A stretch of 64,000 nucleotides of DNA, taken from assembly GCA_951406725.2 (NCBI GenBank), contig OX597827.1, positions 80,104,001-80,168,000 on the forward strand. Reading direction: 5' to 3'. Below the pieces are notes generated by a model. It worked only from the letters and a program-made list of their open reading frames with translations. It was not told the DNA's origin and made no database searches. Within the stretch, counting starts at the first letter, position 1, and each line of letters starts with the position of its first letter. Source of the DNA: Octopus vulgaris. Taxonomy: Eukaryota. Positions 9,841-57,511 of the stretch are shown piece after piece. The translations under genes and the position numbers were made by a program.

Positions 9841-10328
9841 CTTCATTGTGTGTAAAATCCTTTGTTATATAAACTGTGACTTGGTCCCAATGTTCTGTTG
9901 TTAATGGTTGTCTGTGTCACTGCTGCTATGGTGTGACAATGGCTTCATGTTGATGGAATAGTGTTGGTGGTGAGTCAGTGGGAACCAGCAGTTCCCTCTC
10001 AGTCTTCCTTTGTGGATGTGTGGTGTTTAGTGTGTGTGTGTGAGTGTGTGTGAAAGGGAGGAGGAGGAGTAGGATGGGTGATGCTTACTACAGCCTCTCT
10101 CAGACTTGATGTTGCCTCTCACACACAAAGACAGAGTAGTGAGAGAACACACACTATCAGCTCCACTAACAGTCAGCCATGATAAGTCTATATAACACCA
10201 ACATGTCTGATGTGGAGAGAGACTGACATAGAAATCCTTAGAACAGAGAGGTTATATTAACAAAATATGGCTGATGTTGTTAATGTGTGGGTAATTTAAA
10301 ATGTAAATACAATATTGACAATAATAGT
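9841..10328 (-). promoter_or_regulatory. Conserved leader exon E1 / putative promoter block of Pcdh1
   Basis: ~490-bp block near-identical in six units, ending in a perfect donor AAG|gtaagt at 9841; contains (CA)n, a TTATATAG TATA-like element and TGAGTCA; TSS cannot be determined from sequence. Confidence 0.7.
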
Positions 10329-10782
10329 TTGTGAGTGTCTGACCTAATTCAAAACAGAGTCTCATATAAGGATATCTATGGGAAATTTAAAGAGACATCT
10401 CAACTAAACAGAATATATTCTCTGAAATATTAATTACTTATCATTTATTTATTTTTTTCTTATAATTTAAATCACATTTTCAAGTATAAACTGAATTTCC
10501 CAGGCATAATGTCTACTTCTGCACAATATTTCACTTAATGATTGTTCATTTAACTATGAAATGTTACCAATGGATTCTTCATATCTGAAGCTGTTAGTTT
10601 CTTGTTCATCTGGAGTAATATTCCCAAGATATACACAAAATATATTCTCTCAAACATATTTGAAGATATTCAGTCATATGTGGGCAATATCATTATCTAA
10701 CTAAAATATTTCTGTTGTTTTTAAATGTTGTGTGAATGTTGAAGGTGATATTATTTCTGTTGTGTTCCTTTCTCAGCCTCAC

Positions 10783-10904
10783 TTAACTGACAACAACATC
10801 TGGTGTTGAAGGTAACTGTCTCTCTGGAGGTTTCACATATCTGTCTTGGTAATGGTCTCTCTCACTGGTGCCTGATACATCGGGTGGGGCACCACCATAG
10901 ATTC
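10783..10904 (-). CDS. Pcdh2 terminal exon E4 (G/IYGGAPPDVS...RQLPSTPDVVVS*)
   Basis: Acceptor gtttcag|GA completes the phase-1 Gly codon from E3; TAA at 10785-10783; six near-identical copies. Confidence 0.85.
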
Positions 10905-11492
10905 CTGAAACACACATACATACATCAAGTAAACTCATTACACAGGTCATACGGTCAATGGGTATTTACTGTCATTAGTAATCAATGTTTTGTCCACAAC
11001 ATTCAATGGACTAAAATGAAGAACAACATCAATAATTAAAGATGTCACATTGAAATCGTGTCTCAGTATCCTACATCAGAGAACATTACAAACCCCAATC
11101 ATACAACTGATATGATAATTTAGACTCAAATGGTTAAATTAAAATCAGCCTATTAAATAACTGCTTTTGCTTACATATTGTTGAAGTTTCCAACCTTGGT
11201 AACAATAATGGGTTGTTCTTAAAACCACATGCTCTCTCACATGTGCTATCTGTTTCCTTAATGAACCTAAGCTAATGAATATTTCATTCAATTACCCTAA
11301 AATTACACAATTAATATATATGTGGATGGACATAATCTTTCATTTTTAGTCACTAGAAGTTACAAAGTGATTCAAAGGCCAAGAGTTTCGAGGATGACAC
11401 TTGATAAGTGTAATGCAAAAAACTCTAAGACTGATTCAGTTACTTTGCAACTTCTTACAATTAAATATATATATATATATATATATACACAT

Positions 11493-12805: not shown

Positions 12806-12959
12806 CTGACATTGCTGGTATTTCTTCATACTGTCTGCTTGACCGCTCACTCCAGCACTGTCCAGTGCTCTTACGACTGGTCAATGTGTCAGTGGGATAG
12901 TGAGAAGATGGTCTGTTGTCTCCATACGATGTCACCTCAATCGGTTGACTGTACTTCTG
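12806..12959 (-). CDS. Pcdh2 exon E3 (154 nt)
   Basis: Same acceptor, donor and open frame as 3015-3168. Confidence 0.88.
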
Positions 12960-13727: not shown

Positions 13728-16085
13728 CTTTGTAGACTTTTGAAGACTTCTGCTCATGGTCGATGTCTTCCAGTCTTCAGGATAGTAATGGCTCCTTGAA
13801 TGACCATATCTGTCTGACATCTCTCCTCGATTACCTGACATCACAGGTACACTGTTGTTACCTTGATAGATCAACTGTCTCATCTCATTGCGACATTGGT
13901 ATGCCTGTTTCTCTTCTGCAGTTCTTTCAGATGAGCTATTTCTCACATTGTTACATCTCACAATACACAGGGTTATAGAAACCACAATAGCTATAGATAC
14001 TATCACAGCTGCTACTACAATGATAATCAACAATGTCGCATCTATTGTGTTATCACTTGGTAGGTGCACAGCTGTGAACATTGGTGACGTCTTGTTACTA
14101 ACAGTCAGTGTCAAAGACACACTAGTTGTTGCCGACAGAACTGGAGTACCACTGTCTTTCACAACAAACTCAAGCTCATATGATCCGGCATCATTTTGGT
14201 AAACTGTGCGAGAGTAAGATAACACACCAGTGAACGAATCCAGTTTAAATAACTGTCTCTCGTTACCTGAAACGATTTCGTACCTGAGAAAAGCATTCAT
14301 GTGACTGTCTATATCAGATGCTTTCAGAACTGTGATGTCGTTCTTACTTTGCGGATGATAGTGGACATTAAGAGTGAAAGGGTCAACACTAGGAAATGTA
14401 AAATATGGAGCATTATCATTTCTATCCAATACTTCCACTTCAACATTCACTGTGTTATTCAGAGATGGGCTTCCATTGTCTTTCACAAAAACCTCAAACT
14501 CATAGAAATCTCTGTGTTCTCTGTCTAAAGACTGGTTTGTTGAAATAAAGCCAGAGTTGATAATCTGGAATGGCAGACGATATTGCTGTTTATTTCTCAG
14601 AGAATAAGACAATTCACCTCCCTTACCAATATCTGGGTCTGTAGCATTGATAAAGCCAATAGGGAAATTAGCTTTGTCATTCTCATAGGTAAGGAACTTG
14701 AATGTGTCTTTCGTAAAGTGTGGTTCTACATCATTCACATCCAACACTTGGATTGACAGATCTTTATCAGTTTTCAGAGCAGGTAATCCTTTATCTTCAC
14801 ACGACACAGTAAAGTGATAATGTTCCTGTGTCTCTCTGTCTACTGCTTTCTTTAGAACTATTTTATATTCCTTCGATCCCATTGACTGTAGTTTGAATGT
14901 GTCGTCTTTGATATGACAGTTCACCTGTCCATTGTGTCCAACATCATTGTCAGTGACCATCACATAAGCAATGAAACTACCAACTTTGATGTCTTCCAGA
15001 ATGGTGGCTGTGTTGTGATTCTGTGTAGAAATAAAGTTCACATCAATATTTGGAGGATTGTTGTGTTCATTGATGACATTTACCATAACAGTGGCTATGG
15101 AACTCAAAGGAGGACTGCCATCATCTCTGGCTTCGATGTATAATTTAAAAGACTCTTCTTTATCAATTTTTGAAGATGTAGCTAAATATAATTTTCCAGT
15201 CCTTTCATGTAAATTAAAGTTTCTCTTCATTTTCTCAGTAGTTTTCCTAGCAAAGTAATATGATATTTTACCATTCCTGCCAATATCTAAGTCATTGGCA
15301 GATAATGTGACTACTGGAATGTTCTTTTTATGTTTATGTTCTATAGAGACATTGTAGATACTCTGAGAAAATTGTGGTCTGTTGTCATTTTCATCTTCTA
15401 CAGATATTTTCACATTCAAAACAGATTTTTTTGGTGGAGTTCCCCCATCTTTAGCAATGACTTCAATATTGTAATTGTCTTTCTTTTCTCTGTCCAATTT
15501 CTCTTCTAAAATAATTTCTAATGTTGATATTTCATCTGTTTGTTTTGAAACTGATAATGAAAAATGTCCATTATCCTTTTTTAATTCATATGTTACCAAG
15601 CTGTTCTTATGACCCATATCATTATCCACAGCATTGGGTATTGATAGTTTTGCTCCTTTACCATCTCTCTCTGAAAACTGAATGTTGACTTCTTCAGTTG
15701 GAAACTCAGGTTGGTGGTCATTGATGTCTTCTATTATGACTTTAATCTTTAAGATCTTCATAAATGTCTTGGATTTGTGAACAGCAACTTTAACGATTTC
15801 AAAACATTCTTTCTCATAACTACACACAGACTCAGCATCCAATGTCTCAACAGTGTACAGTTTACCTGTTTTAGTCACATTGAACAACTGTTCTCCCTTT
15901 TGTTGCAGTTGACTAAATGTAATTAAATCCTTATTCTTTAAGAAGGAGCTGTCTGTTTTCTGTAAGTCAGTAGCAATGTCCCCTACATAGGTATGAGGAA
16001 TATTCTCTTCTTTAACGTGATATGTAATATCTTCACTTGCATAACAGTGGAAGAAAGTCAGTAAAACACACAGGTGTAACAACAT
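13728..16085 (-). CDS. Protocadherin Pcdh2 large exon E2 (786 codons)
   Basis: Six cadherin repeats plus TM; donor AAG|gtaagc; acceptor ctctttcag| places the exon start at 16141. Confidence 0.95.
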
Positions 16086-16824
16086 CTCTGGTCCTGATGT
16101 TAATGCAGTATCCAGAAAAAAGATGACTTGAAAAATTTGGTCTGAAAGAGAAAATATTTTGTTTCAATGAGCAATTTTGACTAGTTTCGGTTTATTTCAA
16201 TGCATGAATATTTCTTAAACAAATTAAGTGACTAGCAATCATATGTAATTATAATCTTTTCTAGCGCTTATAAAACTACCAGTTTTCCATAAAATCCTCA
16301 AAGATGATTTTATGTCATTTTATTCAACACACACAGTTTAATAAGAAATCTATTTGCATAAATATTCTTTTAAATTTATAACTCCCTTGTGATTCACTAA
16401 TTTCTTTCCAATTTATCATCTTAATCTTTCACACATTATATTTATTATGTGTCCACTAACCCAGGTAATATATTTTATATAATTACCCTCACTAATACTC
16501 AATAATTGCATTCAGATCCTATCCATTATACCCTTTATCTAAAATGTAATATATTTTAGAAGCTGTCATAGTGACATAACTATCACAACAACATTGTATT
16601 TAATTTCAATGTGAAATGCTCATTTTGATTATATACACAAATAATGGAAAGAATAGAAAACAACGGATTTTAATAACAATTCAGAAATTTCATGTTTTGT
16701 TCTCCAGCTGTTTCCATGACCCATATGATAACATAATCAATTATATAATGATTATCTAATTATTTGTACATATTAAATTAACTTGATTCAATGTTATGTG
16801 ATAGACATTTCATTTACACTTATT

Positions 16825-19331: not shown

Positions 19332-19818
19332 CTTCATTGTGTAAAATCCTTTGTTGTATAAACTGTGACTTGGTCCCAATGTTCTGTTGTTAATGGTTGT
19401 CTGTGTCACTGCTGCTATGGTGTGACAATGGCTTCATGTTGATGGAATAGCGTTGGTGGTGAGTCAGTGGGAACCAGCAGTTCCCTCTCAGTCTTCCTTT
19501 GTGGATGTGTGGTGTTTAGTGTGTGTGTGTGTGTGAGTGTGTGAAAGGGAGGAGGAGGAGTAGGATGGGTGATGCTTACTACAGCCTCTCTCAGACTAGA
19601 TGTTGCCTCTCACACACAAAGACAGAGTAGTGAGAGAACACACACTATCTGCTCCACTAACAGTCAGCCATGATAAGTCTATATAACACCAACATGTCTG
19701 ATGTGGAGAGAGACTGACATAGAAATCCTTAGAACAGAGAGGTTATATTAACAAAATATGGCTGATGTTGTTAACGTGTGTGTAATTTAAAATGTAAATA
19801 CAATATTGACAATAACAG
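19332..19818 (-). promoter_or_regulatory. Conserved leader exon E1 / putative promoter block of Pcdh2
   Basis: Near-identical to 9841-10328; donor AAG|gtaagt at 19332. Confidence 0.7.
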
Positions 19819-20272
19819 TTTGTGAGTGTCTGACCTAATTCAAATCTAAGTCTCATATAAGGATATCTATGGGAAATTTAAAGAGATATATCAACTTATT
19901 ACAATATATCCTCTGAAATATTAATTACTTATCATTTATTTATTTTTTCGTTATAATTAAAATCTCATTTTCAAGCATAAATTGAATTTCCCAGGCATAA
20001 TATCTACTTCTGCACAATATTTCACTTAAAGTTTGTTCACTTAACTATGCAATGTTATCAATGGATTCTTCATATCTGAAGCTGTTAGTTTCTTGTTCAT
20101 CTGGAGTAATATTCCCAAGATATACACAAAATATATTCTCTCAAACATATTCGAAGATATTCAGTCATATGTGGGCAATATCATTATCTAACTAAAATAT
20201 TTCTGTTGTTTTAAATGTTGTGTGAATGTTGAAGGTGATATTATTTCTGTTGTGTTCCTTTCTCAGTCTCAC

Positions 20273-24040: not shown

Positions 24041-26398
24041 CTTTGTAGACTTTTGAAGACTTCTGCTCATCGTCGATGTCTTCCAGTCTTCAGGATAGTA
24101 ATGGCTCCTCGAATGACCATATCTGTCTGACATCTCTCCTCGATTACCTGACATCACAGGTACACTGTTGTTACCTTGATAGATCAACTGTCTCATCTCA
24201 TTGCGACATTGGTATGCCTGTTTCTCTTCTGCTGTTCTTTCAGATGAGCTATTTCTCACATTGTTACATCTCACAATACACAGGGTTATAGAAACCACAA
24301 TAGCTATAGATACTATCACAGCTGCTACTACAATGATAATCAACAATGTCGCATCTATTGTGTTATCACTTGGTAGGTGCACAGCTGTGAACATTGGTGA
24401 CGTCTTGTTACTAACAGTCAGTGTCAAAGACACACTAGTTGTTGCTGACAGAACTGGAGTACCACTGTCTTTCACAACAAACTCAAGCTCATATGATCCG
24501 GCATCATTTTGGTAAACTGTGCGAGAGTAAGATAACACACCAGTGAAAGAGTCCAGTTTAAATAACTGTCTCTCGTTACCTGAAATGATTTCATACCTGA
24601 GAAAAGCATTCATGTGACTGTCTATATCAGATGCTTTCAGAACTGTGATGTCGTTCTTACTTTGCGGATGATAGTGGACATTAAGAGTGAAAGGGTCAAC
24701 ACTAGGAAATGTAAAATATGGAGCATTATCATTTCTATCCAATACTTCCACTTCAACATTCACTGTGTTATTCAGAGATGGGCTTCCATTGTCTTTCACA
24801 AAAACCTCAAACTCATAGAAATCTCTGTGTTCTCTGTCTAAAGACTGGTTTGTTGAAATAAAGCCAGAGTTGATAATCTGGAATGGCAGACGATATTGCT
24901 GTTTATTTCTCAGAGAATAAGACAATTCACCTCCCTTACCAATATCTGGGTCTGTAGCATTGATAAAGCCAATAGGGAAATTAGCTTTGTCATTCTCATA
25001 GGTAAGGAACTTGAATGTGTCTTTCGTAAAGTGTGGTTCTACATCATTCACATCCATCACTTGGATTGACAGATCTTTATCAGTTTTCAGAGCAGGTAAT
25101 CCTTTATCTTCACACGACACAGTAAAGTGATAATGTTCCTGTGTCTCTCTGTCTACTGCTTTCTTTAGAACTATTTTATATTCCTTGGATCCCATTGACT
25201 GTAGCTTGAATGTGTCGTCTTTGATATGACAGTTCACCTGTCCATTGTGTCCAACATCATTGTCAGTGACCATCACATAAGCAATGAAACTACCAACTTT
25301 GATGTCTTCCAGAATGGTGGCTGTGTTGTGATTCTGTGTAGAAATAAAGTTCACATCAATATTTGGGGGATTATTATGTTGGTTGATGACGTTTACCATA
25401 ACAGTTGCTATGGAACTGAGAGGAGGGTTGCCCCCATCTCTGGCTTCAATGTATATTTTAAAAGATTCGTCCATATCAATATTTGAAGATGTAGCTAAAT
25501 ATAATTTCCCAGTATTTTCATCTAAATTAAAATATCTCTTCACTTTCTCAGTAGTTTTCCTTGCAAAATAATATGATATTTTACCATTCCTGCCAATGTC
25601 TAAATCACTGGCAGATAATGTGACTACTGGAATATTCTTTTTATGTTTATGTTCTATAGAGACATTGTAGACTCGTTGGGAAAATTTTGGTTTATTATCA
25701 TTTTCATCTTCCACAGATATTTTAACATTTAAAACAGATTGTTTTGGTGGAGTTCCCCCATCTTTAGCAATGACTTCAATATTGTAACTGTCCTTCTTTT
25801 CTCTGTCTAATTTCTCTTCTAAAATAATTCCTAATGCTGATATCTCATCTGTTTCTTTTGAAACTGATAAAGAAAAATGTCCATTATCTTTTTTTAATTC
25901 ATAAGTAATTAAGTTGTTTTCATGGCTCATATCTTTATCAATGGCATGAGGAATGGGTTTCTTCATACCATCTCTGTCTCCTTCGCCAAAGATCAGTGTA
26001 ATGTCCTTCTCAGGAAACTCAGGTTGGTGGTCATTGATGTCTTCTATTATGACTTTAATCTTTAAGATCTTCATAAATGTCTTGGATTTGTGAACAGCAA
26101 CTTTAACGATTTCAAAACATTCTTTCTCATAACTACACACAGACTCAGCATCCAATGTCTCAACAGTGTACAGTTTACCTGTTCTCGTCACATTGAACAA
26201 CTGTTCTCCCTTTTGTTGCAGTTGACTAAATGTAATTAAATCCTTATTCTTTATGAAGGAGCTGTCTGATTTCTGTAAGTCAATAGCAATGTCCCCTACA
26301 TAGGTATGAGGAATATTCTCTTCTTTAACATGGTATGTGATATCTTCACTTAGATAACAATGGAAGGAAGTAAGTAAAACCCATAGAAACAGCAGCAT
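24041..26398 (-). CDS. Protocadherin Pcdh3 large exon E2 (786 codons)
   Basis: Six cadherin repeats plus TM; donor AAG|gtaagc; acceptor gtttcag| places the exon start at 26452. Confidence 0.95.
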
Positions 26399-27029
26399 CT
26401 TGTTTTGGTGTTAATACAGTATCCAAAGAAAGGATAGCTTTAAAAATTCAATCTGAAACAGAAAACATTTTGTCTAAATGAGCAATTTTGGCTTCTTTCA
26501 ATTTACTTCAATGCATAAATATCTTTTAAACAAATTAAGTCTGTGCATAACTAAAATAAGCCTATGCCATTCAAACGGAATATATTGTCAATGTAATGGT
26601 TTTTTTACTACGATAATTTATTAAATACATAGGACAGATAATAGGTAATAAAAATACAATGGATGTCATTTGAATATTAATTGGTATTGTATTAGTGAAT
26701 GGTAATTATAGAAAATATATAACTTTAGATTACAGGTGTTTCACTGAAGCTTCACATATCATAGAAACCCGAGAAAAATTCAACTTCAGACATGTATTTG
26801 CATTTATCTCAGGTTTCTACGAGGTATGAAGCTTCTGAGACTGTTGACAATTGATAATCAAAGTATCGATAATCCAAGCAAGATCTACTTGATGCTGATG
26901 ATGATGATCAATACTATTAAGGATATGTTTTACTTAATCTAATTTTGAATTGATACATAACACATTTTAATAGTAATTTTCACAGTAATTTTTCTTATTC
27001 AGTATGAGCTGTGGAGTAGAGAGAATTTA

Positions 27030-28436: not shown

Positions 28437-28926
28437 CTTCATTGTGTAAAATCCTTTGTTGTATAAACTGTGACTTGGTCCCAATGTTCTGTTGTTAATG
28501 GTTGTCTGTGTCACTGCTGCTATGGTGTGACAATGGCTTCATGTTGATGGAATAGTGTTGGTGGTGAGTCAGTGGGAACCAGCAGTTCCCTCTCAGTCTT
28601 CCTTTGTGGATGTGTGGTGTTTAGTGAGTGTGTGTGTGTGAGTGTGTGTGAAAGGGAGGAGGAGGAGTAGGATGGGTGATGCTTACTACAGCCTCTCTCA
28701 GACTAGATGTTGCCTCTCACACACAAAGACAGAGTAGTGAGAGAACACACACTATCAGCTCCACTAACAGTCAGCCATGATAAGTCTATATAACACCAAC
28801 ATGTCTGATGTGGAGAGAGACTGACATAGAAATCCTTAGAACAGAGAGGTTATATTAACAAAATATGGCTGATGTTGTTAATGTGTGTGTAATTTAAAAT
28901 GTAAATACAATATTGACAATAATAGT
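28437..28926 (-). promoter_or_regulatory. Conserved leader exon E1 / putative promoter block of Pcdh3
   Basis: Near-identical block; donor AAG|gtaagt at 28437. Confidence 0.7.
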
Positions 28927-32335: not shown

Positions 32336-34693
32336 CTTTGTAGACTTCTGAAGTGATCTGCTCATTGTCGATGTCTTCCAGTCTTCAGGATAGTAATGGC
32401 TCCTCGAATGACCATATCTGTCTGACATCTCTCCTCGATTACCTGACATCACAGGTACACTGTTGTTACCTTGATAGATCAACTGTCTCATCTCATTGCG
32501 ACATTGGTATGCCTGTTTCTCTTCTGCTGTTCTTTCAGATGAGCTATTTCTCACATTGTTACATCTCACAATACACAGGGTTATAGAAACCACAATAGCT
32601 ATAGATACTATCACAGCTGCTACTACAATGATAATCAACAATGTCGCATCTATTGTGTTATCACTTGGTAGGTGCACAGCTGTGAACATTGGTGACGTCT
32701 TGTTACTAACAGTCAGTGTCAAAGACACACTAGTTGTTGCTGACAGAACTGGAGTACCACTGTCTTTCACAACAAACTCAAGCTCATATGATCCAGCATC
32801 ATTTTGGTAAACTGTGCGAGAGTAAGATAACACACCAGTGAACGAATCCAGTTTAAATAACTGTCTCTCGTTACCTGAAACGATTTCGTACCTGAGAAAA
32901 GCATTCATGTGACTGTCTATATCAGATGCTTTCAGAACTGTGATGTCGTTCTTACTTTGCGGATGATAGTGGACATTAAGAGTGAAAGGGTCAACACTAG
33001 GAAATGTAAAATATGGAGCATTATCATTTCTATCCAATACTTCCACTTCAACATTCACTGTGTTATTCAGAGATGGGCTTCCATTGTCTTTCACAAAAAC
33101 CTCAAACTCATAGAAATCTCTGTGTTCTCTGTCTAAAGACTGGTTTGTTGAAATAAAGCCAGAGTTGATAATCTGGAATGGCAGACGATATTGCTGTTTA
33201 TTTCTCAGAGAATAAGACAATTCACCTCCCTTACCAATATCTGGGTCTGTAGCATTGATAAAGCCAATAGGGAAATTAGCTTTGTCATTCTCATAGGTAA
33301 GGAACTTGAATGTGTCTTTCGTAAAGTGTGGTTCTACATCATTCACATCCAACACTTGGATTGACAGATCTTTATCAGTTTTCAGAGCAGGTAATCCTTT
33401 ATCTTCACACGACACAGTAAAGTGATAATGTTCCTGTGTCTCTCTGTCTACTGCTTTCTTTAGAACTATTTTATATTCCTTCGATCCCATTGACTGTAGT
33501 TTGAATGTGTCATCTTTGATATGACAGTTCACCTGTCCATTGTGTCCAACATCATTGTCAGTGACCATCACATAAGCAATGAAACTACCAACTTTGATGT
33601 CTTCCAGAATGGTAGCTGTGTTGTGATTCTGTGTAGAAATAAAGTTCACATCAATATTTGGAGGATTGTTGTGTTCATTGATGACATTTACCATAACAGT
33701 GGCTATGGAACTGAGAGGAGGGTTGCCATTGTCTCTAGCTTCAATGGATATTTTAAAAGACTTGTCCTTATCAATTTTTGAAGATGTAGCTAAATATAAT
33801 TTTCCAGTATTTTCATTTAAATTGAAGTTCCTCTTCACTTTCTCAGTAGTTTTTCTAGCAAAGTAATATGATATTTTACCATTCCTGCCAATATCTAAAT
33901 CACTGGCAGATAATGTGACTACTGGAATATTCTTTTTGTGTTTATGTTCTATAGAGACATTGTAGATACTTTGGGAAAATTGAGGCCTGTTGTCATTTTC
34001 ATCTTCTACAGATATTTTAACATTTAAAACAGATTCTTTTGGTGGAGTTCCCCCATCTTTAGCAATGACTTCAATATTGTAGCTGTCTTTCGTTTCTCTG
34101 TCCAATTTCTCTTCTAAAATTATCTCTAATGCTGAAAATTCATCTGTTTGTTTTGAAACTGATAATGAAAAATGTCCATTATCTTTTTTTAATTCATATG
34201 TTACCAAGCTGTTCTTATGACCCATATCATTATCAACAGCATTGGGTATTGATAGTTTTGCTCCTTTACCATCTCTCTCTGAAAACTGAATGTTGACCTC
34301 TTCAGTTGGAAATTCAGGTTTGTGGTCATTGATGTCTTCTATTATGACTTTAATCTTTAAGATCTTCATAAATGTCTTGGATTTGTGAACAGCAACTTTA
34401 ACGATTTCAAAACATTCTTTCTCATAACTACACACAGACTCAGCATCCAATGTCTCAACAGTGTACAGTTTACCTGTTCTCGTCACATTGAACAACTGTT
34501 CTCCCTTTTGTTGCAGTTGACTAAATGTTATCAAATCCTTATTCTTTAAGAAGGAGCTGTCTGATTTCTGTAAGTCAGTAGCAATGTCCCCTACATAAGT
34601 ATAGGGAATATTCTCTTCTTTAACATGGTATGTGATATCTTCACTTGCATAACAGTGGAATAAAGTCAATAAAACACATATGTGTAACAACAT
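32336..34693 (-). CDS. Protocadherin Pcdh4 large exon E2 (786 codons)
   Basis: Six cadherin repeats plus TM; donor AAG|gtaagt; acceptor places the exon start at 34749. Confidence 0.95.
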
Positions 34694-35420
34694 CTCTGGT
34701 CCTGATGTTAATGCAGTATCCAGAAAAAAGATGACTTGAAAAATTTGGTCTGAAAGAGAAAATATTTTGTTTCAATGAGCAATCTTGACTAGTTTCGGTT
34801 TATTTCAATGCATGAATATTTTTTAAACAAATTAAGTGACTAGCAATCATATGTAATTATAATATTTTCTAGCGCTTATAAAACTACCTGTTTTCCATAA
34901 AATCTTCAGAGATGTTTTTATGTCATTGTATTCAACACACACAGTTTAATAAGAAATCTATTTGCATAAATATTCTTTTAAATTCATAACTCCCTTGTGT
35001 TTCACTAATTTCTTTCCATTTTATCATCTTAATCTTTCACACATTATATTTATTATGTGTCCACTAACCCGGGTAATATATTTTATATAATTACCCTCAC
35101 TAATACTCAAAAATTGCATTCAGATGCTATCCATTATACCCTTTATCTAACATGTAATATATTTTAGAAGCTGTCATAGTGACATAACTATCACAACAAC
35201 ATTGTATTTAATTTCAATGTGAAATGCTCATTTTGATTATGTACACAAATAATGGAAAGAATAGAAAACAACGGATTTTAATAACAATTCAGAAATTTCA
35301 TGTTTTGCTCTCCATGACCCACATGATAACATAATCAATTATATAATGATTATCTAATTATTTGTACATATTAAATTAACTTGATTCAATGTTATGTGAT
35401 AGACATTTATCTACACTTAT

Positions 35421-39308: not shown

Positions 39309-39790
39309 CTTCATTGTGTAAAATCCTTTGTTGTATAAACTGTGACTTGGTCCCAATGTTCTGTTGTTAATGGTTGTCTGTGTCACTGCTGCTATGGTGT
39401 GACAATGGCTTCATGTTGATGGAATAGTGTTGGTGGTGAGTCAGTGGGAACCAGCAGTTCCCTCTCAGTCTTCCTTTGTGGATGTGTGGTGTATAATGTG
39501 TGTGTGTGTGTGTGAAAGGGAGGAGGAGGAGTAGGATGGGTGATGCTTACTACAGCCTCTCTCAGACTAGATGTTGCCTCTCACACACAAAGACAGAGTA
39601 GTGAGAGAACACACACTATCAGCTCCACTAACAGTCAGCCATGATAAGTCTATATAACACCAACATGTCTGATGTGGAGAGAGACTGACATAGAAATCCT
39701 TAGAACAGAGAGGTTATATTAACAAAATATGGCTGATGTTGTTACTGTGTGTGTAATTTAAAATGTAAATACAATATTGACAATAATAGT
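39309..39790 (-). promoter_or_regulatory. Conserved leader exon E1 / putative promoter block of Pcdh4
   Basis: Near-identical block; donor AAG|gtaagt at 39309. Confidence 0.7.
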
Positions 39791-42290: not shown

Positions 42291-44648
42291 CTTTGTGGAC
42301 TTTTGCAGTGTCCGGTTCATTGTTGATGTCTTCCAATCTTCAGGATAGTAATGGCTCCTCGAATGACCATATCTGTCTGACATCTCTCCTCGATTACCTG
42401 ACATCACAGGTACACTGTTGTTACCTTGATAGATCAACTGTCTCATCTCATTGCGACATTGGTATGCCTGTTTCTCTTCTGCTGTTCTTTCAGATGAGCT
42501 ATTTCTCACATTGTTACATCTCACAATACACAGGGTTATAGAAACCACAATAGCTATAGATACTATCACAGCTGCTACTACAATGATAATCAACAATGTC
42601 GCATCTATTGTGTTATCACTTGGTAGGTGCACAGCTGTGAACATTGGTGACGTCTTGTTACTAACAGTCAGTGTCAAAGACACACTAGTTGTTGCTGACA
42701 GAACTGGAGTACCACTGTCTTTCACAACAAACTCAAGCTCATATGAGCCGGCATCATTTTGGTAAACTGTGCGAGAGTAAGATAACACACCAGTGAACGA
42801 ATCCAGTTTAAATAACTGTCTCTCGTTACCTGAAACGATTTCATACCTGAGAAAAGCATTCATGTGACTGTCTATATCAGATGCTTTCAGAACTGTGATG
42901 TCGTTCTTACTTTGCGGATGATAGTGGACATTAAGAGTGAAAGGGTCAACACTAGGAAATGTAAAATATGGAGCATTATCATTTCTATCCAATACTTCCA
43001 CTTCAACATTCACTGTGTTATTCAGAGATGGGCTTCCATTGTCTTTCACAAAAACCTCAAACTCATAGAAATCTCTGTGTTCTCTGTCTAAAGACTGGTT
43101 TGTTGAAATAAAGCCAGAGTTGATAATCTGGAATGGCAGACGATATTGCTGTTTATTTCTCAGAGAATAAGACAATTCACCTCCCTTACCAATATCTGGG
43201 TCTGTAGCATTGATAAAGCCAATAGGGAAATTAGCTTTGTCATTCTCATAGGTAAGGAACTTGAATGTGTCTTTCGTAAAGTGTGGTTCTACATCATTCA
43301 CATCCAACACTTGGATTGACAGATCTTTATCAGTTTTCAGAGCAGGTAATCCTTTATCTTCACACGACACAGTAAAGTGATAATGTTCCTGTGTCTCTCT
43401 GTCTACTGCTTTCTTTAGAACTATTTTATATTCCTTCGATCCCATTGACTGTAGTTTGAATGTGTCATCTTTGATATGACAGTTCACCTGTCCATTGTGT
43501 CCAACATCATTGTCAGTGACCATCACATAAGCAATGAAACTACCAACTTTGATGTCTTCCAGAATGGTAGCTGTGTTGTGATTCTGTGTAGAAATAAAGT
43601 TCACATCAATATTTGGAGGATTGTTGTGTTGGTTGATGACATTTACCATAACAGTTGCTATGGAACTGAGAGGAGGACTGCCATCATCCCTTGCTTCAAT
43701 GTATATTTTAAAAAATTCATCCGTATCAATCTTTGAAGATGTAGCTAAATATAATTTCCCAGTATTTTCATCTAAATTGAAGTTCCTCTTCACTTTCTCA
43801 CTAGTTTTCCTAGCAAAATAGAAAGATATTTTACCATTCCTGCCAATATCTAAATCACTGGCAGATAATGTGACTACTGGAATATTCTTTTTATGTTTAT
43901 GTTCAATAGAGACATTGTAGATACTTTGGGAAAATTGTGGCCTGTTGTCATTTTCATCTTCTACAGATATTTTAACATTTAAAATAGATTGTTTTGGTGG
44001 AGTTCCCCCATCTTTAGCAATGACTTCAATATTGTAACTGTCCTTCTTTTCTCTGTCTAATTTATCTTCTAAAATAATTTCTAACGCTGATATCTCATCT
44101 GTTTGTTTAGAAACTGATAAAGAGAAATACTGATTGTTATTTTTCAATTCATAAGTAATTAAGTTGTTTTTATTACTCATATCTTTGTCAATAGCATGAG
44201 GTATGGGCCTTTTCATGCCTTTACCATCTCCATCTCCGAAATGAATATCAATTTCTTTCTGAGGAAACTCAGGTTGGTGGTCATTGATGTCTTCTATTAT
44301 GACTTTAATCTTTAAGATCTTCATAAATGTCTTGGATTTGTGAACAGCAACTTTAACGATTTCAAAACATTCTTTCTCATAACTACACACAGACTCAGCA
44401 TCCAATGTCTCAACAGTGTACAGTTTACCTGTTCTCGTCACATTGAACAACTGTTCTCCCTTTTGTTGCAGTTGACTAAATGTAATTAAATCCTTATTCT
44501 TTAAGAAGGAGCTGTCTGATTTCTGTAAGTCAGTAGCAATGTCCCCTACATAGGTATAGGGACTATTCTCTTCTTTAACATGGTATGTGATATCTTCACT
44601 TAAATAACAGTGGAAGAAAGTCAGCAAAACACACAGGTGTAACAACAT
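42291..44648 (-). CDS. Protocadherin Pcdh5 large exon E2 (786 codons)
   Basis: Six cadherin repeats plus TM; donor AAG|gtaagc; acceptor places the exon start at 44704. Confidence 0.95.
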
Positions 44649-45894
44649 CTCTGGTCCTGATGTTAATACAATATCCAGATGAGAGATGTCTTCAAATATT
44701 CAGTCTGAAATAGAAAATAGTTTTGTTTAAGGAATGACTTTAAATAAACTTTCTTTCTTACTTGAATGCATTAATATTTTTTAATCGAATACAGAAACAA
44801 GCAATTTTTTAGATTAACATTAATTTCCAACACATACAAAAGCCTTTCTGCTTTATAGGAAGTCCAAAGAAATGCATGGAGGTTAGTTTTTCACTGCATT
44901 CAACAAATTGAGTTTAAAAACAAATTCAATTTTATAAATTATGTGTGAAGTTTAATAACTCCTTTGTATCCTGCTGGATTCTTTTATGTTTACCAGTTTA
45001 ATGATTGACTTATAAGCATACTTACTGATGTATAAAACACATTTATGTATAATGAGCTTACCTAACTATGAAGTCCAGCAAGAAAGTATCTCACATGTAT
45101 AATATGTACTGATTTCTTTTTCAGTGTCATGGTATATGGGGAAGGAACAGTTTTAGTTAGATTTATTATAATTGTTCTATAAAGGACACTGACAGATGTG
45201 GGACCATTGTAATTAGGCCTTAGAAGTTCACACACTGTAACATCAACTTTGTAAGGATTACACAAACAGAGTTATTATTATATGTAATCAAAGTTGTTTA
45301 CTGAAAACTCATTTTATGACTGCTGGAGGCGCTAAGTATCCCCAACAATAACAACAATTAAACCAGTAAAAGAGCACAAAATTTAAAGAATCTACACACA
45401 AAACTCTCAACATACAATTTGATTTGAAACTCTGTTTCCAAATATTAAACATTTTAAATATTGGTCTTCACTGTCCAATCTTGTGCTTACAACAGTTTGT
45501 TCCCAATGCAGGAAAAAACCCCATCTCAGTCTGTGGAGTCACCCCATGGTTATATAAACACCAGTTTCAGCCCCTCTTTGTCTTTGGCAGCAGCTATTGA
45601 CCACACACCACATCTCTATTGGACCAGCACTGATAAACTAGACACCAGTTGGTTTCGCAGCATTCTTCAACCAGCCGTTGCCTGTCGTCTTCACTGCAGC
45701 AAGAGACAGCAGAGCATAGCCCCAGCAACAGACCCTGCAGAACTGAAGTCTTTTGAATTTTTGTTCTAGACTGTTATATTAACATCATTTGCTTTTGGCT
45801 TTCTTCTATTTTTATATCTTGAGGAGTAAATCATTGCTTCTTCAACTTACTCAAATCTTATCATTTTTTTTCCCTTCTGTCCTCCTTACAGGTC

Positions 45895-46805: not shown

Positions 46806-47298
46806 CTTCATTGTGTAAAATCCTTTGTTGTATAAACTGTGACTTGGTCCCAATGTTCTGTTGTTAATGGTTGTCTGTGTCACTGCTGCTATGGTGTGAC
46901 AATGGCTTCATGTTGATGGAATAGTGTTGGTGGTGAGTCAGTGGGAACCAGCAGTTCCCTCTCAGTCTTCCTTTGTGGATGTGTGGTGTTTAGTGTGTGT
47001 GTGTGTGTGTGTGAGTGTGTGTGAAAGGGAGGAGGAGGAGTAGGATGGGTGATGCTTACTACAGCCTCTCTCAGACTAGATGTTGCCTCTCACACACAAA
47101 GACAGAGTAGTGAGAGAACACACACTATCAGCTCCACTAACAGTCAGCCATGATAAGTCTATATAACACCAACATGTCTGATGTGGAGAGAGACTGACAT
47201 AAAAATCCTTAGAACAGAGAGTTATATTAACAAAATATGGCTGATGTTGTTAATGTGTGTGTAATTTAAAATGTAAATACAATATTGACAATAATAGT
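46806..47298 (-). promoter_or_regulatory. Conserved leader exon E1 / putative promoter block of Pcdh5
   Basis: Near-identical block; donor AAG|gtaagt at 46806. Confidence 0.7.
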
Positions 47299-48205: not shown

Positions 48206-48345
48206 GTGTGTGTGAAATAAACATGAATAGTTTCAGTCATAAATGGAGAAATATTATTAATTAACTAATATATTTCTGTTGTTTTAAATGTTGTGTGAAT
48301 GTTGAAAGTGATATTATTTCTGTTGTGTTCCTTTCTCAGTCTCAC

Positions 48346-52010: not shown

Positions 52011-54369
52011 TTTTATAGATTTTTGAAGTGTTCTGTTCATTGTCGATGTCTTCCAGTCTTCAGGATAGTAATGGCTCCTCGAATGACCATATCTCTCTGA
52101 CATCTCTCCTCGATTACCTGACATCACAGGTACACTGTTGTTACCTTGATAGATCAACTGTCTCATCTCATTGCGACATTGGTATGCCTGTTTCTCTTCT
52201 GCTGTTCTTTCAGATGAGCTATTTCTCACATTGTTACATCTCACAATACACAGGGTTATAGAAACCACAATAGCTATAGATACTATCACAGCTGCTACTA
52301 CAATGATAATCAACAATGTCGCATCTATTGTGTTATCACTTGGTAGGTGCACAGCTGTGAACATTGGTGACGTCTTGTTACTAACAGTCAGTGTCAAAGA
52401 CACACTAGTTGTTGCTGACAGAACTGGAGTACCACTGTCTTTCACAACAAACTCAAGCTCATATGATCCGGCATCATTTTGGTAAACTGTGCGAGAGTAA
52501 GATAACACACCAGTGAACGAATCCAGTTTAAATAACTGTCTCTCGTTACCTGAAATGATTTCATACCTGAGAAAAGCATTCATGTGACTGTCTATATCAG
52601 ATGCTTTCAGAACTGTGATGTCGTTCTTACTTTGCGGATGATAGTGGACATTAAGAGTGAAAGGGTCAACACTAGGAAATGTAAAATATGGAGCATTATC
52701 ATTTCTATCCAATACTTCCACTTCAACATTCACTGTGTTATTCAGAGATGGGCTTCCATTGTCTTTCACAAAAACCTCAAACTCATAGAAATCTCTGTGT
52801 TCTCTGTCTAAAGACTGGTTTGTTGAAATAAAGCCAGAGTTGATAATCTGGAATGGCAGACGATATTGCTGTTTATTTCTCAGAGAATAAGACAATTCAC
52901 CTCCCTTACCAATATCTGGGTCTGTAGCATTGATAAAGCCAATAGGGAAATTAGCTTTGTCATTCTCATAGGTAAGGAACTTGAATGTGTCTTTCGTAAA
53001 GTGTGGTTCTACATCATTCACATCCAACACTTGGATTGACAGATCTTTATCAGTTTTCAGAGCAGGTAATCCTTTATCTTCACACGACACAGTAAAGTGA
53101 TAATGTTCCTGTGTCTCTCTGTCTACTGCTTTCTTTAGAACTATTTTATATTCCTTCGATCCCATTGACTGTAGTTTGAATGTGTCATCTTTGATATGAC
53201 AGTTCACCTCTCCATTGTGTCCAACATCATTGTCAGTGACCATCACATAAGCAATGAAACTACCAACTTTGATGTCTTCCAGAATGGTAGCTGTGTTGTG
53301 ATTCTGTGTAGAAATAAAGTTCACATCAATATTTGGAGGACTGTTTTGTTGGTTGATGACATTTACCATAACCGTTGCTATGGAGCTGAGAGGAGGCATA
53401 CCTTTATCTTTAGCTTTTACATACAATTTAAATGACTCTTTTATATCCAGATTTAAAGGTTTTTCTAAGAATAATTTCCCAGAATTTTCATCTAGATGGA
53501 AGTATTCTTTCATTTTAGCATCTGTTTTCTGACTGAAATAGAAAGATATTTTACCATTCCTGCCAATATCTAAATCACTGGCAGATAATGTGATGACTGG
53601 AATATTCTTTTTATGTTTATGTTCAATAGAGACATTGTAGATACGTTGGGAAAATTCTGGTTTATTATCATTTTCATCTTCTACAGATATTTTAACATTT
53701 AAACCAGATTGTTTTGGTGGAGTTCCCCCATCTTTAGCAATGACCTCAATATCATAATTGTCCTTCTTTTCTCTGTCTAATTTATCTTCTAAAATAATTT
53801 CTAATGTTGATAATCCATCATCTTCTTTGGAAACACTTAATGAAAAATGTCCATTATCTTTTTTTAATTCATAAGTAATTAAGCTGTTTTCATGACTCAT
53901 ATCCTTGTCTATAGCATGAGGTATGGGTTTCTTCATACCATCTCTGTCTCCTTCCCTAAAACTTAGAGTAATTTCTTTCTGAGGAAACTCAGGTTGGTGG
54001 TCATTGATGTCTTCTATTATGACTTTAATCTTTAAGATCTTCATAAATGTCTTGGATTTGTGAACTGCAACTTTAACGATTTCAAAACATTCTTTCTCAT
54101 AACTACACACAGACTCAGCATCCAATGTCTCAACAGTGTACAGTTTACCTGTTCTCGTCACATTGAACAACTGTTCTCCCTTTTGTTTGCAGTTGACTAA
54201 ATGTAATTAAATCCTTATTCTTTAAGAAGGAGCTGTCTGATTTCTGTAAGTCAGTAGCAATGTCCCCTACATAGGTATAGGGAATATTCTCTTCTTCAAC
54301 ATGGTATGTGATATCTTCACTTAAATAACAGTGGAAGAAAGTCAGTAAAATGCACAGATACAACAACAT
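52011..54369 (-). pseudogene. Protocadherin Pcdh6 large exon E2 with +1 frameshift in EC1 (pseudogene or assembly error)
   Basis: ttttgtttgc at 54181-54190 versus ttttgttgc in the six other copies; the rest of the exon, donor AAA|gtaaga and acceptor (exon start 54425) are intact. Confidence 0.75.
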
Positions 54370-57019
54370 CTCTGGTCTTGACGTTAATGCAATATCCAAG
54401 GAAATGTTGATTTCAAATTTTTCATCTGGAAAATAAATAAATAGCCTTTAAGTAATAAAAAATAAGTTGTAATTTTATTTGAAGTGGCTTTTAAATAACC
54501 AGATTTATGTTAATGTGAAAGGATGCCATTTCTATGAATAAAGAAGATTCTTTTATTGTGAAATATAAGTAGCAATGAAGAGGAGACAGAGATTAGATTT
54601 TATTTGTTGATTCCACCTTTAAAATACTCTTTGAGAACCTTAATTTCCCTGAGTACCACTTAGTTCCCTCTCTTTTTACTTCCAAAGAATATCTTCATAT
54701 TCTAATGAGTACAGATATAAAATCAAAAAATTACATCTCATAACTCCTTACAAATCTTTTTATTGATACTTTACTGATATAATATAATCCTCATAACTCA
54801 ACATTTCAGGTGTCTATTCATATTCTCATCTTAATGATTAATTAGTTCCTTCTTTATAGTTACTTTCTATAGAGAAAAATAAACAAACACTCATGATATG
54901 ATACTATCAAGGCAGTATTAGGATTTCTACATTTACAGCATTACGAGTTAGTGCTATACTACTCTACAGAATAAATCTATAGGATTCGGTCATCACAAAC
55001 GTCAATATTGTATTGCAATAGAAGACAGCCAATGCACCAGTAATTATGAGTTAGCTCCCTTGCAGATCACTAAACAAACCTGTTAGAAAACGATATAATT
55101 TCCTATTTAAAAAAAAATTCGTTAATAATGTATAAAATAGGAAATATTGCAAAAATAACCTTAATTCGATAACTTTGAGATTACTTTGATGTTATAAACG
55201 ACATAAATACTGGGAAAATTATATTTATACCTCTATGGCCCTCTTTAAATACTTGTAAATTATCACAGCTATAAGAACAATGTTAGAGAAACGATCCCAA
55301 TATAATGTACCATCAACAGCAGGAAAAGGTAAATATTATAACAAGAAGACATTTTTACGACAACTCTACAGAAACAAAAGAGGAAACTGAAAATAGAATA
55401 TCCATCGCAAAATGAGAATGAAACTACATCTTTTGATATCAGATTGGTTTTGAGTGAGCAGACATTCCAGAAGTGGCTATCCCAACTTTTCTTCAAAAGT
55501 AACATATCGTGGACTCTGCCATGTAATGTCTTCTTTCTTTTTTAGGATGGTAGGCTGTGATTTGAGTGAGATTTGGCTGCTATTTCAAGAAAGTGGAGAA
55601 ACCAACACTAGTTCTCTCACTGACCATTAATGATGTAGGTCACAATCACAATTTCAACAAAACGACATGACATCTAATACCATTTAATTAATATCTACCA
55701 ACTTATTCGTTAACATAACATCCCATATTTAGTCAAAAGTAGTTTAATCTTTGCCCAGTTGCTCTGTCTGGATGTCAACTTTATCCAAACCAGTCTATAA
55801 AAATATTTCAAATCATTTATCCATTTGTATAATTAAACAATATTCAATTTATCCATCAGTAGGCAGGTTTACAAGAGATTTATATAAGGTCATTAACAGA
55901 ATTCTGTTTTTGTCTTTTGTTGTGTCCACCAAATGGTGGGGACTGGGTGTGGTGTGAACGCTTATGTTTCTTGGACCCTTTCAAAAATTCAATTGTGTGT
56001 GTGAGAAAAAGATGGGGGGGGGGGAGATAGAAAAGGAGAGAAGGGATATCAACTCCTGTAAATAAGGAGTAGCTTATGAAGCCCAAAGGGATGTAAAGTA
56101 AATTTGGTTTCTGTGCGATTTGAACTCAGAACCCAGAAGACTTCAGACCATACCAATTCCCTATTGTGACTCTATGAGAGACAATATTACCTAACGATAT
56201 ATTTGAGAAGAGCAATGAAATACAACACAGAAACAATAAAGACAGTTTAACCAACAAATAATCGTTTTTATAAATAAAGTAAAATATCCATAGAAGAAAC
56301 TGAGCTAGAAATTATAAAACTGTTACATTTTAATGGTTGAAATATACAAAATAATTCTAATTAGCAAATGTGATTCAAGTGTTCAGAAATGATCTAGTCA
56401 TGATAGGTAGTATTTAAAATTTGTATAAAGACAAAGCATAAAGATGAAGGAAAACAGGAGAAGCAGCAATTATATATTGTACATATACATACATAGAAAC
56501 GCAGCCAAATACATTGATTATATATAGACACATACACTCACACAATAGCATATATACCTAGGTTCATACATATTTTAACCTTCTTTTAGTATTATTTATA
56601 TTTCCAATAATGTGTTTATATTTTACACGGTATCAAATTATTTCCATAAAGCATTTATAAATGTAAATATTCAACAAGAAAAATATTCTAGTGAAAGGCA
56701 GAGGCACGTCAACTGGAATATAATGGTTTAGCAAAGAAATGAAAGTTGCAGTGAATTTATAAAGATCCGACAAAGATGTGTGAAAAAAACATCACATCAA
56801 AATGATTACAAATCATATTCCTGAACAATTCCTGCTTCCCTACAATTATCAACAAAATATTTGAAAGCCACAATAGAAAAGGAAGTCATTAAAAAAGGCA
56901 TAATACAAATCAAATATGGCCACCATTAAATTACTCCAGTCTGATGTTCCAATATGCCTATGTACAGGAAACTGTTACTTTACATGACTAAATAAATAAT
57001 ATAGAATAAACAAACTTAC

Positions 57020-57511
57020 CTTCATTGTGTAAAATCCTTTGTTGTATAAACTGTGACTTGGTCCCAATGTTCTGTTGTTAATGGTTGTCTGTGTCACTGC
57101 TGCTATGGTGTGACAATGGCTTCATGTTGATGGAATAGTGTTGGTGGTGAGTCAATGGGAACCAGCAGTTCCCTCTCAGTCTTCCTTTGTGGATGTGTGA
57201 TGTTTAGTGTGTGTGTGTGTGTGTGAGTGTGTGAGAAAGGGAGGAGGAGGAGTAGGATGGGTGATGCTTACTACAGCCTCTCTCAGACTAGATGTTGCCT
57301 CTCACACACAAAGACAGAGTAGTGAGAGAACACAAACTATCAGCTCCACTAACAGTCAGCCATGATAAGTCTATATAACACCAACATGTCTGATGTGGAG
57401 AGAGACTGACATAGAAATCCTTAGAACAGAGAGGTTATATTAACAAAATATGGCTGATGTTGTTAATGTGTGTGTAATTTAAAATGTAAATACGATATTC
57501 ACAATAATAGT
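57020..57511 (-). promoter_or_regulatory. Conserved leader exon E1 / putative promoter block of Pcdh6
   Basis: Core near-identical to the other five although both flanks are diverged; donor AAG|gtaagt at 57020. Confidence 0.7.

What the first reader, a model, noticed from the sequence alone, without database searches (positions are those of the whole stretch)
9841..57511. Six near-identical ~490-bp non-coding leader/promoter blocks, one per gene
Seen: blocks at 9841, 19332, 28437, 39309, 46806 and 57020 differ mainly in (GT)n length and a few SNPs. The Pcdh6 block keeps this identity although its flanks have diverged. All end in a perfect AAG|gtaagt donor and contain TTATATAG, TGATAAG, TGAGTCA and a GGGAAC-n5-GTTCCC palindrome. 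Inference: equivalent promoters cannot easily be told apart by transcription factors, which would favour stochastic or enhancer-competition promoter choice. This is analogous to the conserved element of vertebrate clustered Pcdh promoters, though I see no convincing CTCF motif here.
Basis: partly seen in the sequence, partly recalled or inferred. Interest (0 to 1): 0.75.

Follow-up and report, generated by a model that had tools for sequence, protein, structure and literature searches.

The report
Interchangeable first exons of octopus protocadherins
Six neighbouring octopus nerve-adhesion genes start with almost the same 490-base piece, probably promoter plus untranslated first exon, kept alike by DNA exchange while only the recognition domains stay different, which raises a testable question of how neurons pick among them.

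Summary
The six blocks are real: 97.5% mean identity, minus strand, one before each of six octopus protocadherin genes. Each is best read as about 160 bp of proximal promoter plus a 320-330 nt first exon that holds one short upstream ORF and starts another. No start site was measured. The block is not uniquely conserved. EC1, EC4-6, the transmembrane region, tail exons 3 and 4 and the proximal 3'UTR are 96-100% identical too, whereas EC2-EC3 (82-85%) and introns are old. All 17 variable block columns are singletons, and block 6 shows about 8 differences where 45 are expected from its flank. EC4-6 proteins group by genus, while EC2-3 interleave Octopus with Argonauta. This is concerted evolution by DNA-level exchange, paralleling vertebrate clustered protocadherins. 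The block is not a vertebrate-type conserved element: no CTCF core, almost no CpG. The listed GATA, AP-1 and palindrome motifs are individually at chance level. Identical promoters argue against gene-specific proximal control but fit broad co-expression as well as stochastic choice; this was not testable here.

The parts
9841..10328 (-). Block 1: inferred proximal promoter (10328-10168) and first exon (10167-9841) of gene 1
   Evidence: TATA-like 10195, initiator-like A 10167, donor after 9841
19332..19819 (-). Block 2 (gene 2); TATA-like 19686, inferred start 19658
28437..28926 (-). Block 3 (gene 3); TATA-like 28793, inferred start 28765
39309..39790 (-). Block 4 (gene 4); TATA-like 39657, inferred start 39629
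46806..47298 (-). Block 5 (gene 5); upstream flank diverged, first 440 nt of intron 1 still near-identical to units 2-4; inferred start 47138
57020..57511 (-). Block 6 (gene 6); both flanks diverged; inferred start 57350
9901..9948 (-). Upstream ORF 1 (15 codons plus stop) inside the first exon; same in all six blocks (19437, 28542, 39414, 46911, 57125)
4094..6507 (-). Gene 1 exon 2: 56-nt leader, signal peptide, six cadherin repeats, transmembrane helix, start of tail; ATG at 6451
13728..16141 (-). Gene 2 exon 2; ATG at 16085
24041..26452 (-). Gene 3 exon 2; 54-nt leader; ATG at 26398
32336..34749 (-). Gene 4 exon 2; recent duplicate of gene 2; ATG at 34693
42291..44704 (-). Gene 5 exon 2; ATG at 44648
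52011..54425 (-). Gene 6 exon 2; ATG at 54369; one extra base near 54187 shifts the frame in EC1
61632..63989 (-). Gene 7 exon 2 coding part; its first exon would lie outside the window
3015..3168 (-). Exon 3 (154 nt, cytoplasmic tail) of gene 1; copies start at 12959, 22520, 31567, 41454, 51039, 60997
   Evidence: 97.1% identical
10783..10904 (-). Exon 4 coding part with stop, gene 2; copies start at 20394, 29502, 40366, 48467, 58061; each stop lies 920-1540 nt before the next block's donor
   Evidence: 99.0% identical
10448..10453 (-). AATAAA of the upstream gene, 114-125 nt before each block and 275-286 nt before the inferred start (also 19944, 29051, 39915, 47420, 57625); use as poly(A) signal is inferred

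Best explanation
Each block is the proximal promoter (about 160 bp) and the mostly untranslated first exon (about 325 nt) of one gene in a head-to-tail array of complete four-exon octopus protocadherin genes. Purifying selection keeps this piece alignable, and repeated DNA-level gene conversion or unequal exchange then resets it to near identity, as it does EC1, EC4-6, the membrane anchor, both tail exons and the proximal 3'UTR. EC2-EC3 escape this. The array therefore reaches a variable/constant design without shared exons: same promoter input, same leader, same signalling tail, different recognition module. The most likely working consequence is that all paralogues are competent in the same broad set of neurons and fire largely independently, giving overlapping, noisy mixtures tuned by intronic or distant elements, without vertebrate-type CTCF/methylation choice. 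Shown here: identity pattern, star-like block variation, genus-wise grouping of constant domains. Strongly inferred: first exon spliced to exon 2 (about 0.9), conversion as cause (about 0.85). Weakly inferred: start site at the initiator-like A inside the block (about 0.65), expression pattern (about 0.5).
For: Donor in 6 of 6 blocks, pyrimidine-rich acceptor 54-56 nt before 6 of 6 start codons. 3 of 160 database proteins screened (CAI9733494.1, XP_029645412.2, CAI9733495.1) begin with two residues that fit the block's last six bases (0-1 changes) better than the six intron bases before the acceptor (3 changes), followed by ten residues in the acceptor register (9 and 7 changes of 30 against gene 6; random 30-mers reach 9 or fewer in 0.08% and 0 of 5000). 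Identity runs 133 bp upstream of the TATA-like motif at 98%, whereas intron ends before exons 2, 3 and 4 are 58-66%. Fourfold-degenerate sites: EC5 100%, EC4 98%, EC6 97%, EC2 71%, EC3 74% over 7 genes. Block: 17 of 17 variable columns are singletons; block 6 differs from blocks 1-4 by a mean 7.75 sites against 44.7 expected if it scaled like its flank, block 5 by 3.75 against 34.2 (P about 1e-11 and 1e-10). Units are mosaics: genes 1, 3 and 5 have near-unalignable introns 2 and 3 (45-61% among themselves; random baseline 48%) yet blocks 1-4 share 91-95% upstream flanks, and the shared tract of block 5 runs 440 nt into the intron, so the exchange is at DNA level. Among 64 protein units, EC4-6 split 21 Argonauta from 43 Octopus (100/99), while EC2-3 need 10 label changes and reject one Argonauta clade (p-AU 1.75e-8). 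Single-cell work reports about 21 PCDH genes per octopus neuron (PMC9712504, passages).
Against: No transcript, start-site or chromatin data were available; a search for short transcript-derived proteins crossing the junction gave 1 hit of 4 candidates, a RefSeq model without the leader. The three supporting proteins are predicted models, probably only two distinct paralogues; their exon coordinates and RNA support were not visible. TATA-to-initiator spacing is 27 nt, short of the usual 30-31 (recalled), and the motif is a 7-of-8 match. All-singleton variation suggests one recent sweep, or some sequencing error, rather than steady patchwork conversion. Assembly polishing could inflate the last 1-2% of identity. 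No DNA from another species was available, so conservation of the block itself across species is untested. Some octopus PCDH are cell-type specific, though it is unknown whether they belong to this array.
Confidence: 0.62

Rival explanations
1. Stochastic, limited promoter choice. The blocks are equivalent promoters competing for a shared enhancer, or silenced by read-through from the upstream neighbour, so each neuron stably expresses a small random subset: a barcode as in vertebrates but without CTCF or CpG methylation.
For: Promoter differences were not protected from homogenisation while EC2-EC3 differences were (pS 0.35-0.42, pN/pS 0.28-0.29). Uniform co-expression would make that diversity useless for self-recognition (inference). 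Only 114-125 nt separate the upstream AATAAA from the block, and read-through PCDH transcripts are mentioned in PMC9712504. [quoted passage not shown]
Against: No CTCF core in any block: 15 window matches, 14.3 expected, 0 of 15 inside a block. 0-2 CpG per block. No enhancer identified. Many PCDH are co-expressed per cell and some are ubiquitous. Identical promoters in other tandem families give co-expression (recalled).
Confidence: 0.27
2. The whole block is transcribed leader (or an internal exon using the acceptor-like site 367 nt before the donor), and the true promoters are upstream, in divergent sequence overlapping the previous gene's 3' end. The promoters would then not be equivalent.
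For: Identity elsewhere in these genes is mostly limited to exons. One acceptor-like site exists in the block, and a donor-like GTGAG follows the exon 4 stop in 6 of 6 units. Long 3'UTRs are a noted feature of the octopus transcriptome (PMC9699675, passage).
Against: The 120 nt upstream of the acceptor-like site are 98% identical, unlike true intron ends. The 90 nt after the stop are 96% identical, as expected of 3'UTR rather than intron. A full-block leader would add three more upstream ATGs. The single TATA-like plus initiator-like pair lies inside the block.
Confidence: 0.25
3. The identity reflects recent tandem duplication of whole units plus ordinary purifying selection, with no conversion.
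For: Genes 2 and 4 are a recent whole-unit duplicate (8.5 kb at 95.8%). Flanks of blocks 1-4 are 91-98% alike. An 8-14 Ma octopod expansion has been dated (PMC9795677, passages).
Against: Synonymous sites are near-identical in EC4-6 but about 27% diverged in EC2-3 of the same exon. Oldest and youngest blocks are equally close. EC2-3 lineages predate the Argonauta-Octopus split.
Confidence: 0.07
4. The block is a dispersed repeat, a structured RNA gene, or an assembly artefact.
For: It holds a microsatellite; the window is repeat-rich; gene 6 has a homopolymer frameshift that may be a sequencing error. No eukaryotic genome could be searched.
Against: Six copies, each at the same place in a homologous unit, with diverged but alignable flanks. 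No Rfam match (0 of 4227 families), no tRNA, fold z -0.49. The same constant/variable pattern appears in proteins from three other genome annotations.
Confidence: 0.04

Closest known systems
Coleoid protocadherin tandem arrays (Albertin 2022, PMC9068888; Jiang 2022, PMC9795677; passages read)
   Same: Head-to-tail, multi-exon, complete genes; no shared constant exons; homogenisation by gene conversion already suggested.
   Different: The passages read do not describe a near-identical leader exon or promoter, nor restriction of diversity to EC2-EC3. A reviewer reply for PMC9712504 calls the large exon the first exon.
Vertebrate clustered protocadherins (Pcdh alpha, beta, gamma; PMC7811963, PMC4978886, passages read)
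   Same: One promoter per variable unit; EC2-EC3 most diverse and EC5-EC6 most converted; constant tail. Closest solved structures by sequence are protocadherins.
   Different: Independent origin. Constant tail by conversion of separate exons, not by splicing to shared exons. Leader exon and 2-4.6 kb intron before the ATG. No CGCT box or CTCF core, no CpG island; whole promoter-leader near-identical rather than a short shared motif.
Chelicerate sDscam alternative-promoter cassettes (PMC4835542, passages read)
   Same: Invertebrate tandem array of neuronal recognition isoforms, each preceded by a promoter.
   Different: Immunoglobulin domains spliced to shared constant exons; near-identity of promoters not reported in the passages read.
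Primate red/green opsin array with a locus control region; histone, rRNA and hsp70 tandem arrays (recalled, no call)
   Same: Near-identical promoters maintained by conversion in tandem genes.
   Different: Opsins show exclusive choice by one enhancer, the others show co-expression; together they show that promoter identity alone does not decide between the two outcomes.

Membership tests
Coleoid clustered protocadherin gene | Signal peptide, six cadherin repeats and transmembrane helix in one large exon | tested here: met
   gene 6 has a frameshift
Coleoid clustered protocadherin gene | Head-to-tail complete genes, each with its own tail exons | tested here: met
   Exon 3 for 7 of 7 genes, exon 4 for 6 of 7 (gene 1's not in the window)
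Vertebrate cPcdh conserved sequence element | CGCT box / CTCF core motif | tested here: not met
   CGCT in 1 of 6 blocks; 0 of 15 matches to a recalled 12-base CTCF consensus with 2 mismatches lie in a block. Consensus scan only, no weight matrix; some frog and fish elements also lack CGCT
Vertebrate cPcdh conserved sequence element | About 200 bp upstream of the start codon | tested here: not met
   Intron 1 of 1984-4559 nt separates block and coding exon
Vertebrate cPcdh conserved sequence element | Methylation-controlled CpG promoter | tested here: not met
   0-2 CpG per block, observed/expected 0-0.1 against 0.25 for the window; methylation itself not testable
Vertebrate cPcdh conserved sequence element | CTCF/cohesin loop to a cluster enhancer | not testable with these tools
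   CTCF and cohesin are reported in squid (PMC9023564, passage); no binding data
Vertebrate-type stochastic promoter choice | Random subset expressed per neuron | not testable with these tools
   Only family-wide counts in print
Vertebrate-type variable/constant organisation | Variable exons spliced to shared constant exons | tested here: not met
   Each gene carries its own exons 3 and 4
Vertebrate-type variable/constant organisation | EC2-EC3 spared from conversion, EC5-EC6 homogenised | tested here: met
   vertebrate pattern from PMC4978886
Vertebrate-type variable/constant organisation | Homophilic EC1-4 antiparallel binding with EC2-EC3 specificity | not testable with these tools
RNA polymerase II TATA/initiator core promoter | TATA box about 30 nt before an initiator | tested here: inconclusive
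   7-of-8 TATA-like, spacing 27, 1% of 1000 shuffles, post hoc
RNA polymerase II TATA/initiator core promoter | Mapped capped 5' ends and open chromatin | not testable with these tools
   Annotation supplement of PMC9712504 too large to read
Conserved-peptide upstream ORF | Amino-acid-level constraint in the uORF frame only | tested here: inconclusive
   Junction uORF is 15 codons in 6 of 6 genes; pN/pS 0.49, but 0.47 in the +1 frame
Dispersed repeat / SINE / known ncRNA | Copies away from the genes; tRNA-like head; Rfam match | tested here: not met
   Window only; genome-wide search not possible

The most novel reading that the evidence does not exclude
Octopods independently built a neuronal barcode locus: gene conversion makes promoter, leader and tail interchangeable across dozens of complete genes, selection shields only EC2-EC3, and each neuron expresses a random subset through a CTCF-free and methylation-free route, such as competition for one enhancer or promoter occlusion by read-through from the neighbour whose poly(A) signal lies under 300 nt upstream.
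Probability: 0.27. Interest if true: 0.85.

Novelty: new variant of a known kind. Interest (0 to 1): 0.57.

Why it matters
How cephalopods deploy their independently expanded protocadherins is open. This locus supplies a concrete candidate promoter, a predicted start site and junction, and paralogue-specific probe regions (EC2-EC3, signal peptide, exon 2 leader). It shows that the EC2-EC3-variable, rest-constant pattern of vertebrate clustered protocadherins has also arisen in octopods, by conversion of whole genes including their 5' ends. It also has practical consequences: short reads from the constant parts cannot be assigned to paralogues, and expansion dates from whole-gene distances may be too young for such arrays. 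Nine literature searches and the passages read showed no description of these blocks or of the domain-wise pattern in cephalopods. Albertin 2015 was not held, Wang and Ragsdale 2017 was not looked up, and the supplements of Albertin 2022 were not read; any may already cover part of this.

Tried and rejected
Rfam scan of the window: 0 matches. ARAGORN: 0 genes. Leader RNA fold: z -0.49, so no special structure; the palindrome is a 7-bp stem of chance frequency. CTCF consensus scan: chance level, none in blocks. GATA, AP-1 and CSL-like motifs (recalled consensuses): each in 20-45% of shuffles. Coding potential of the block: no long ORF in six frames of block 3, and tblastn of 159 retrieved proteins against blocks 3 and 6 with flanks gave no hit. 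Peptide constraint on the junction uORF: not distinguishable from another frame. Positive selection on EC2-3: pN/pS about 0.3, not shown. Messenger-RNA-templated conversion: rejected because shared tracts include intron and flank. The fused second unit of XP_029645412.2 was first noted as proof of the acceptor position, then dropped as ambiguous. Search for short transcript-derived proteins across the junction: nothing useful. Transcript annotation supplement: too large; one scanned PDF not searchable. Complex prediction of an EC1-4 dimer: tool not available. Prokaryote, phage and plasmid collections were not searched as irrelevant; viral and metagenome contigs were closed. For the trees, 63 proteins went in, 66 full-length units passed the filter and 64 remained after removing duplicates; all 5 O. 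bimaculoides entries and 2 O. vulgaris entries failed the length filter.
Full report
Setting. The window holds seven protocadherin genes head to tail on the minus strand, about 8-10 kb apart. The best database matches are octopod proteins, and EC2-3 of genes 1 and 7 are identical to O. vulgaris CAI9733492.1 and CAI9733493.1. Each gene has a large exon (signal peptide, six cadherin repeats, transmembrane helix, start of tail), a 154-nt exon 3 and a terminal exon 4. Database models confirm the exon 2-3-4 joins. The genes are complete and share no exons, as described for coleoids (PMC9068888, passages).

Observation. They are 482-493 bp long and 97.5% identical on average over 15 pairs, 98.8% without gaps. 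All end in a consensus donor. No other copy exists in the window. The quoted motifs come from both strands, and GATA, AP-1 and the palindrome each occur in 11-45% of 1000 shuffles. Their presence in all six copies is one observation, not six.

Anatomy. Each large exon has a pyrimidine-rich acceptor 54-56 nt before its ATG, 2.0-4.6 kb downstream of the block. The block holds one TATA-like motif with an initiator-like A 27 nt downstream; this pair occurs in 1% of shuffles, but the pattern was chosen after the fact and rests on recalled consensuses. Taking that A as the start gives 160-161 bp of promoter and a 321-333 nt first exon, with the palindrome and AP-1 site inside the transcribed leader at about +170 to +200. 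The exon carries a 15-codon upstream ORF. Its last six bases begin a second 15-codon ORF that ends 12-14 nt before the main ATG in 6 of 6 genes; peptide-level constraint was not shown. Three of 160 retrieved proteins appear to start on these six bases, in paralogues where a short deletion would put them in frame. This is indirect support for the splice, since these are predicted models whose exons I could not see. An AATAAA of the upstream gene lies only 114-125 nt before each block, leaving little room for gene-specific upstream sequence.

Why the blocks are alike. The block is one of several islands. Over the window's genes EC1 is 97.9% identical, EC4 99.1%, EC5 100%, EC6 98.9%, the membrane helix 100%, exon 3 97.1%, exon 4 99.0% and the first 90 nt of 3'UTR 95.7%. 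EC2 is 82.2%, EC3 85.0%, the exon 2 leader 76%, and the sampled 300-nt intron windows 54-77% against a random baseline of 48%. Fourfold-degenerate sites follow the same split (EC5 100%, EC2 71%, EC3 74%), which protein selection cannot explain. In the block, 17 of 475 ungapped columns vary and all 17 are singletons. If the block shared its flank's history at a uniformly lower rate, block 6 should differ from blocks 1-4 at about 45 sites; it differs at 7.75. Segment-by-segment identities show mosaics: only genes 2 and 4 are a whole-unit duplicate, and shared tracts around the block extend into intron and flank to different lengths. So the exchange is between DNA copies, not through mRNA.

Cross-species test. 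Among 64 protein units (7 window, 9 O. vulgaris, 27 O. sinensis, 21 Argonauta hians), EC4-6 is 99% identical within each genus and 95% between them (medians). Its tree separates the genera (100/99, bootstrap not fully settled), while the EC2-3 tree needs 10 changes, at least 8 forced by well-supported branches, and rejects a single Argonauta clade (p-AU 1.75e-8). The grouping is by species label, but I had seen the tree before running the test, and long branches are present. Duplications therefore predate the genus split and the constant parts were homogenised in each lineage. Polishing artefacts could add a little identity but not this pattern. The test covers proteins only; no DNA of the block from another species was available.

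How it probably works. Shown: sequence islands and their histories. Inferred: selection keeps promoter and leader alignable, conversion equalises them, and nothing has favoured promoter differences, whereas EC2-EC3 differences persist under purifying selection (pN/pS about 0.3). The proximal promoter then cannot specify which paralogue a cell uses. My leading reading is broad competence with largely independent firing, modulated by divergent introns or distant elements (0.62 for the whole account). Limited stochastic choice, by a shared enhancer or by read-through interference, is the main rival for the last step (0.27). A fully transcribed block with divergent upstream promoters remains possible (0.25). 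These readings overlap in part, so the figures do not sum to one. Published single-cell data give about 21 PCDH genes per neuron, some ubiquitous and some cell-type enriched (PMC9712504, passages and one part of the review file). They do not resolve this array.

Comparison. In vertebrates the conserved element is a CTCF site with a CGCT box about 200 bp before the ATG, under methylation control (PMC7811963, PMC4978886, passages). Here position, motif and CpG content all fail, so the block is not a member, although the scan used a consensus only. The domain pattern does match vertebrates, where EC2-EC3 escape conversion and set binding specificity. Binding was not testable. Chelicerate sDscam uses alternative promoters with shared constant exons (PMC4835542, passages). 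Whether a HUSH-like control exists in octopus is left open in PMC9635835 (passage). Gene conversion in coleoid arrays has been suggested before.

Papers seen: passages only for PMC6339937, PMC9068888, PMC7811963, PMC9712504, PMC9795677, PMC4978886, PMC8787164, PMC9023564, PMC9699675, PMC9635835 and PMC4835542; part 5 of 12 of one supplement of PMC9712504. Albertin 2015 was not held. Noonan 2004 is known only through citing passages. Opsin and histone comparisons are recalled.

Verdict. A real feature, best explained as a converted promoter plus first exon in a known gene array: a new variant of a known kind. The wider pattern, a vertebrate-like variable/constant design reached by conversion, is the more solid result. 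Interest 0.57; 0.85 if stochastic choice without CTCF is shown (probability about 0.27).

Noticed in passing
window 54187 (gene 6, minus strand): One extra base in an A-run shifts the frame in EC1. Pseudogene or sequencing error; an O. sinensis unit 94% identical in EC2-3 is annotated in frame.
   Followed up: partly
window 9407-17866 and 27994-36457: Recent 8.5-kb duplication at 95.8% identity (genes 2 and 4 with adjacent blocks).
   Followed up: yes
exon 3 acceptors, e.g. window 3168: Tandem CAGCAG acceptor in 7 of 7 genes; database isoforms differ by one glutamine at this join.
   Followed up: partly
exon 4 stops, e.g. window 10783: A donor-like GTGAG directly follows the stop codon in 6 of 6 units; use unknown.
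   Followed up: no
genes 1 and 7 (window 4094-6451, 61632-63989): They match consecutive O. vulgaris accessions CAI9733492.1 and CAI9733493.1 although five genes lie between them here: annotation gaps or copy-number variation.
   Followed up: no
EC2-EC3 of the seven genes: 1353 of 3240 pairs of biallelic informative sites are incompatible, suggesting shuffling within the variable region itself; recurrent mutation not excluded.
   Followed up: partly
database proteins P0124, P0135, P0146, P0148, P0153, P0157: Gene models fuse two to five array genes (up to 4439 aa): annotation artefacts or read-through.
   Followed up: no
window 47623-48208: An (AT)36 run and a 77-nt inverted repeat pair lie between exon 4 and block 5, lengthening the spacer by about 600 nt; possibly a small transposon.
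   Followed up: no
window 37062-37757, 21493-22262, 30001-30495: Intronic ORFs and an inverted copy that look like LINE reverse-transcriptase C-terminal remnants (resemblance recalled, not searched).
   Followed up: no
window 17635-18099: An intron 1 ORF of gene 2 resembles the N-terminal extension of RefSeq model XP_036365289.1, probably a repeat-derived mis-annotation.
   Followed up: no
literature, PMC9795677: The 8-14 Ma date for one octopod PCDH expansion uses whole-gene distances, which conversion would shorten; whether this array is that cluster was not tested.
   Followed up: no
window 1-3014: Gene 1's exon 4 is not in the window, so its intron 3 exceeds 3 kb or the exon is missing.
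   Followed up: partly
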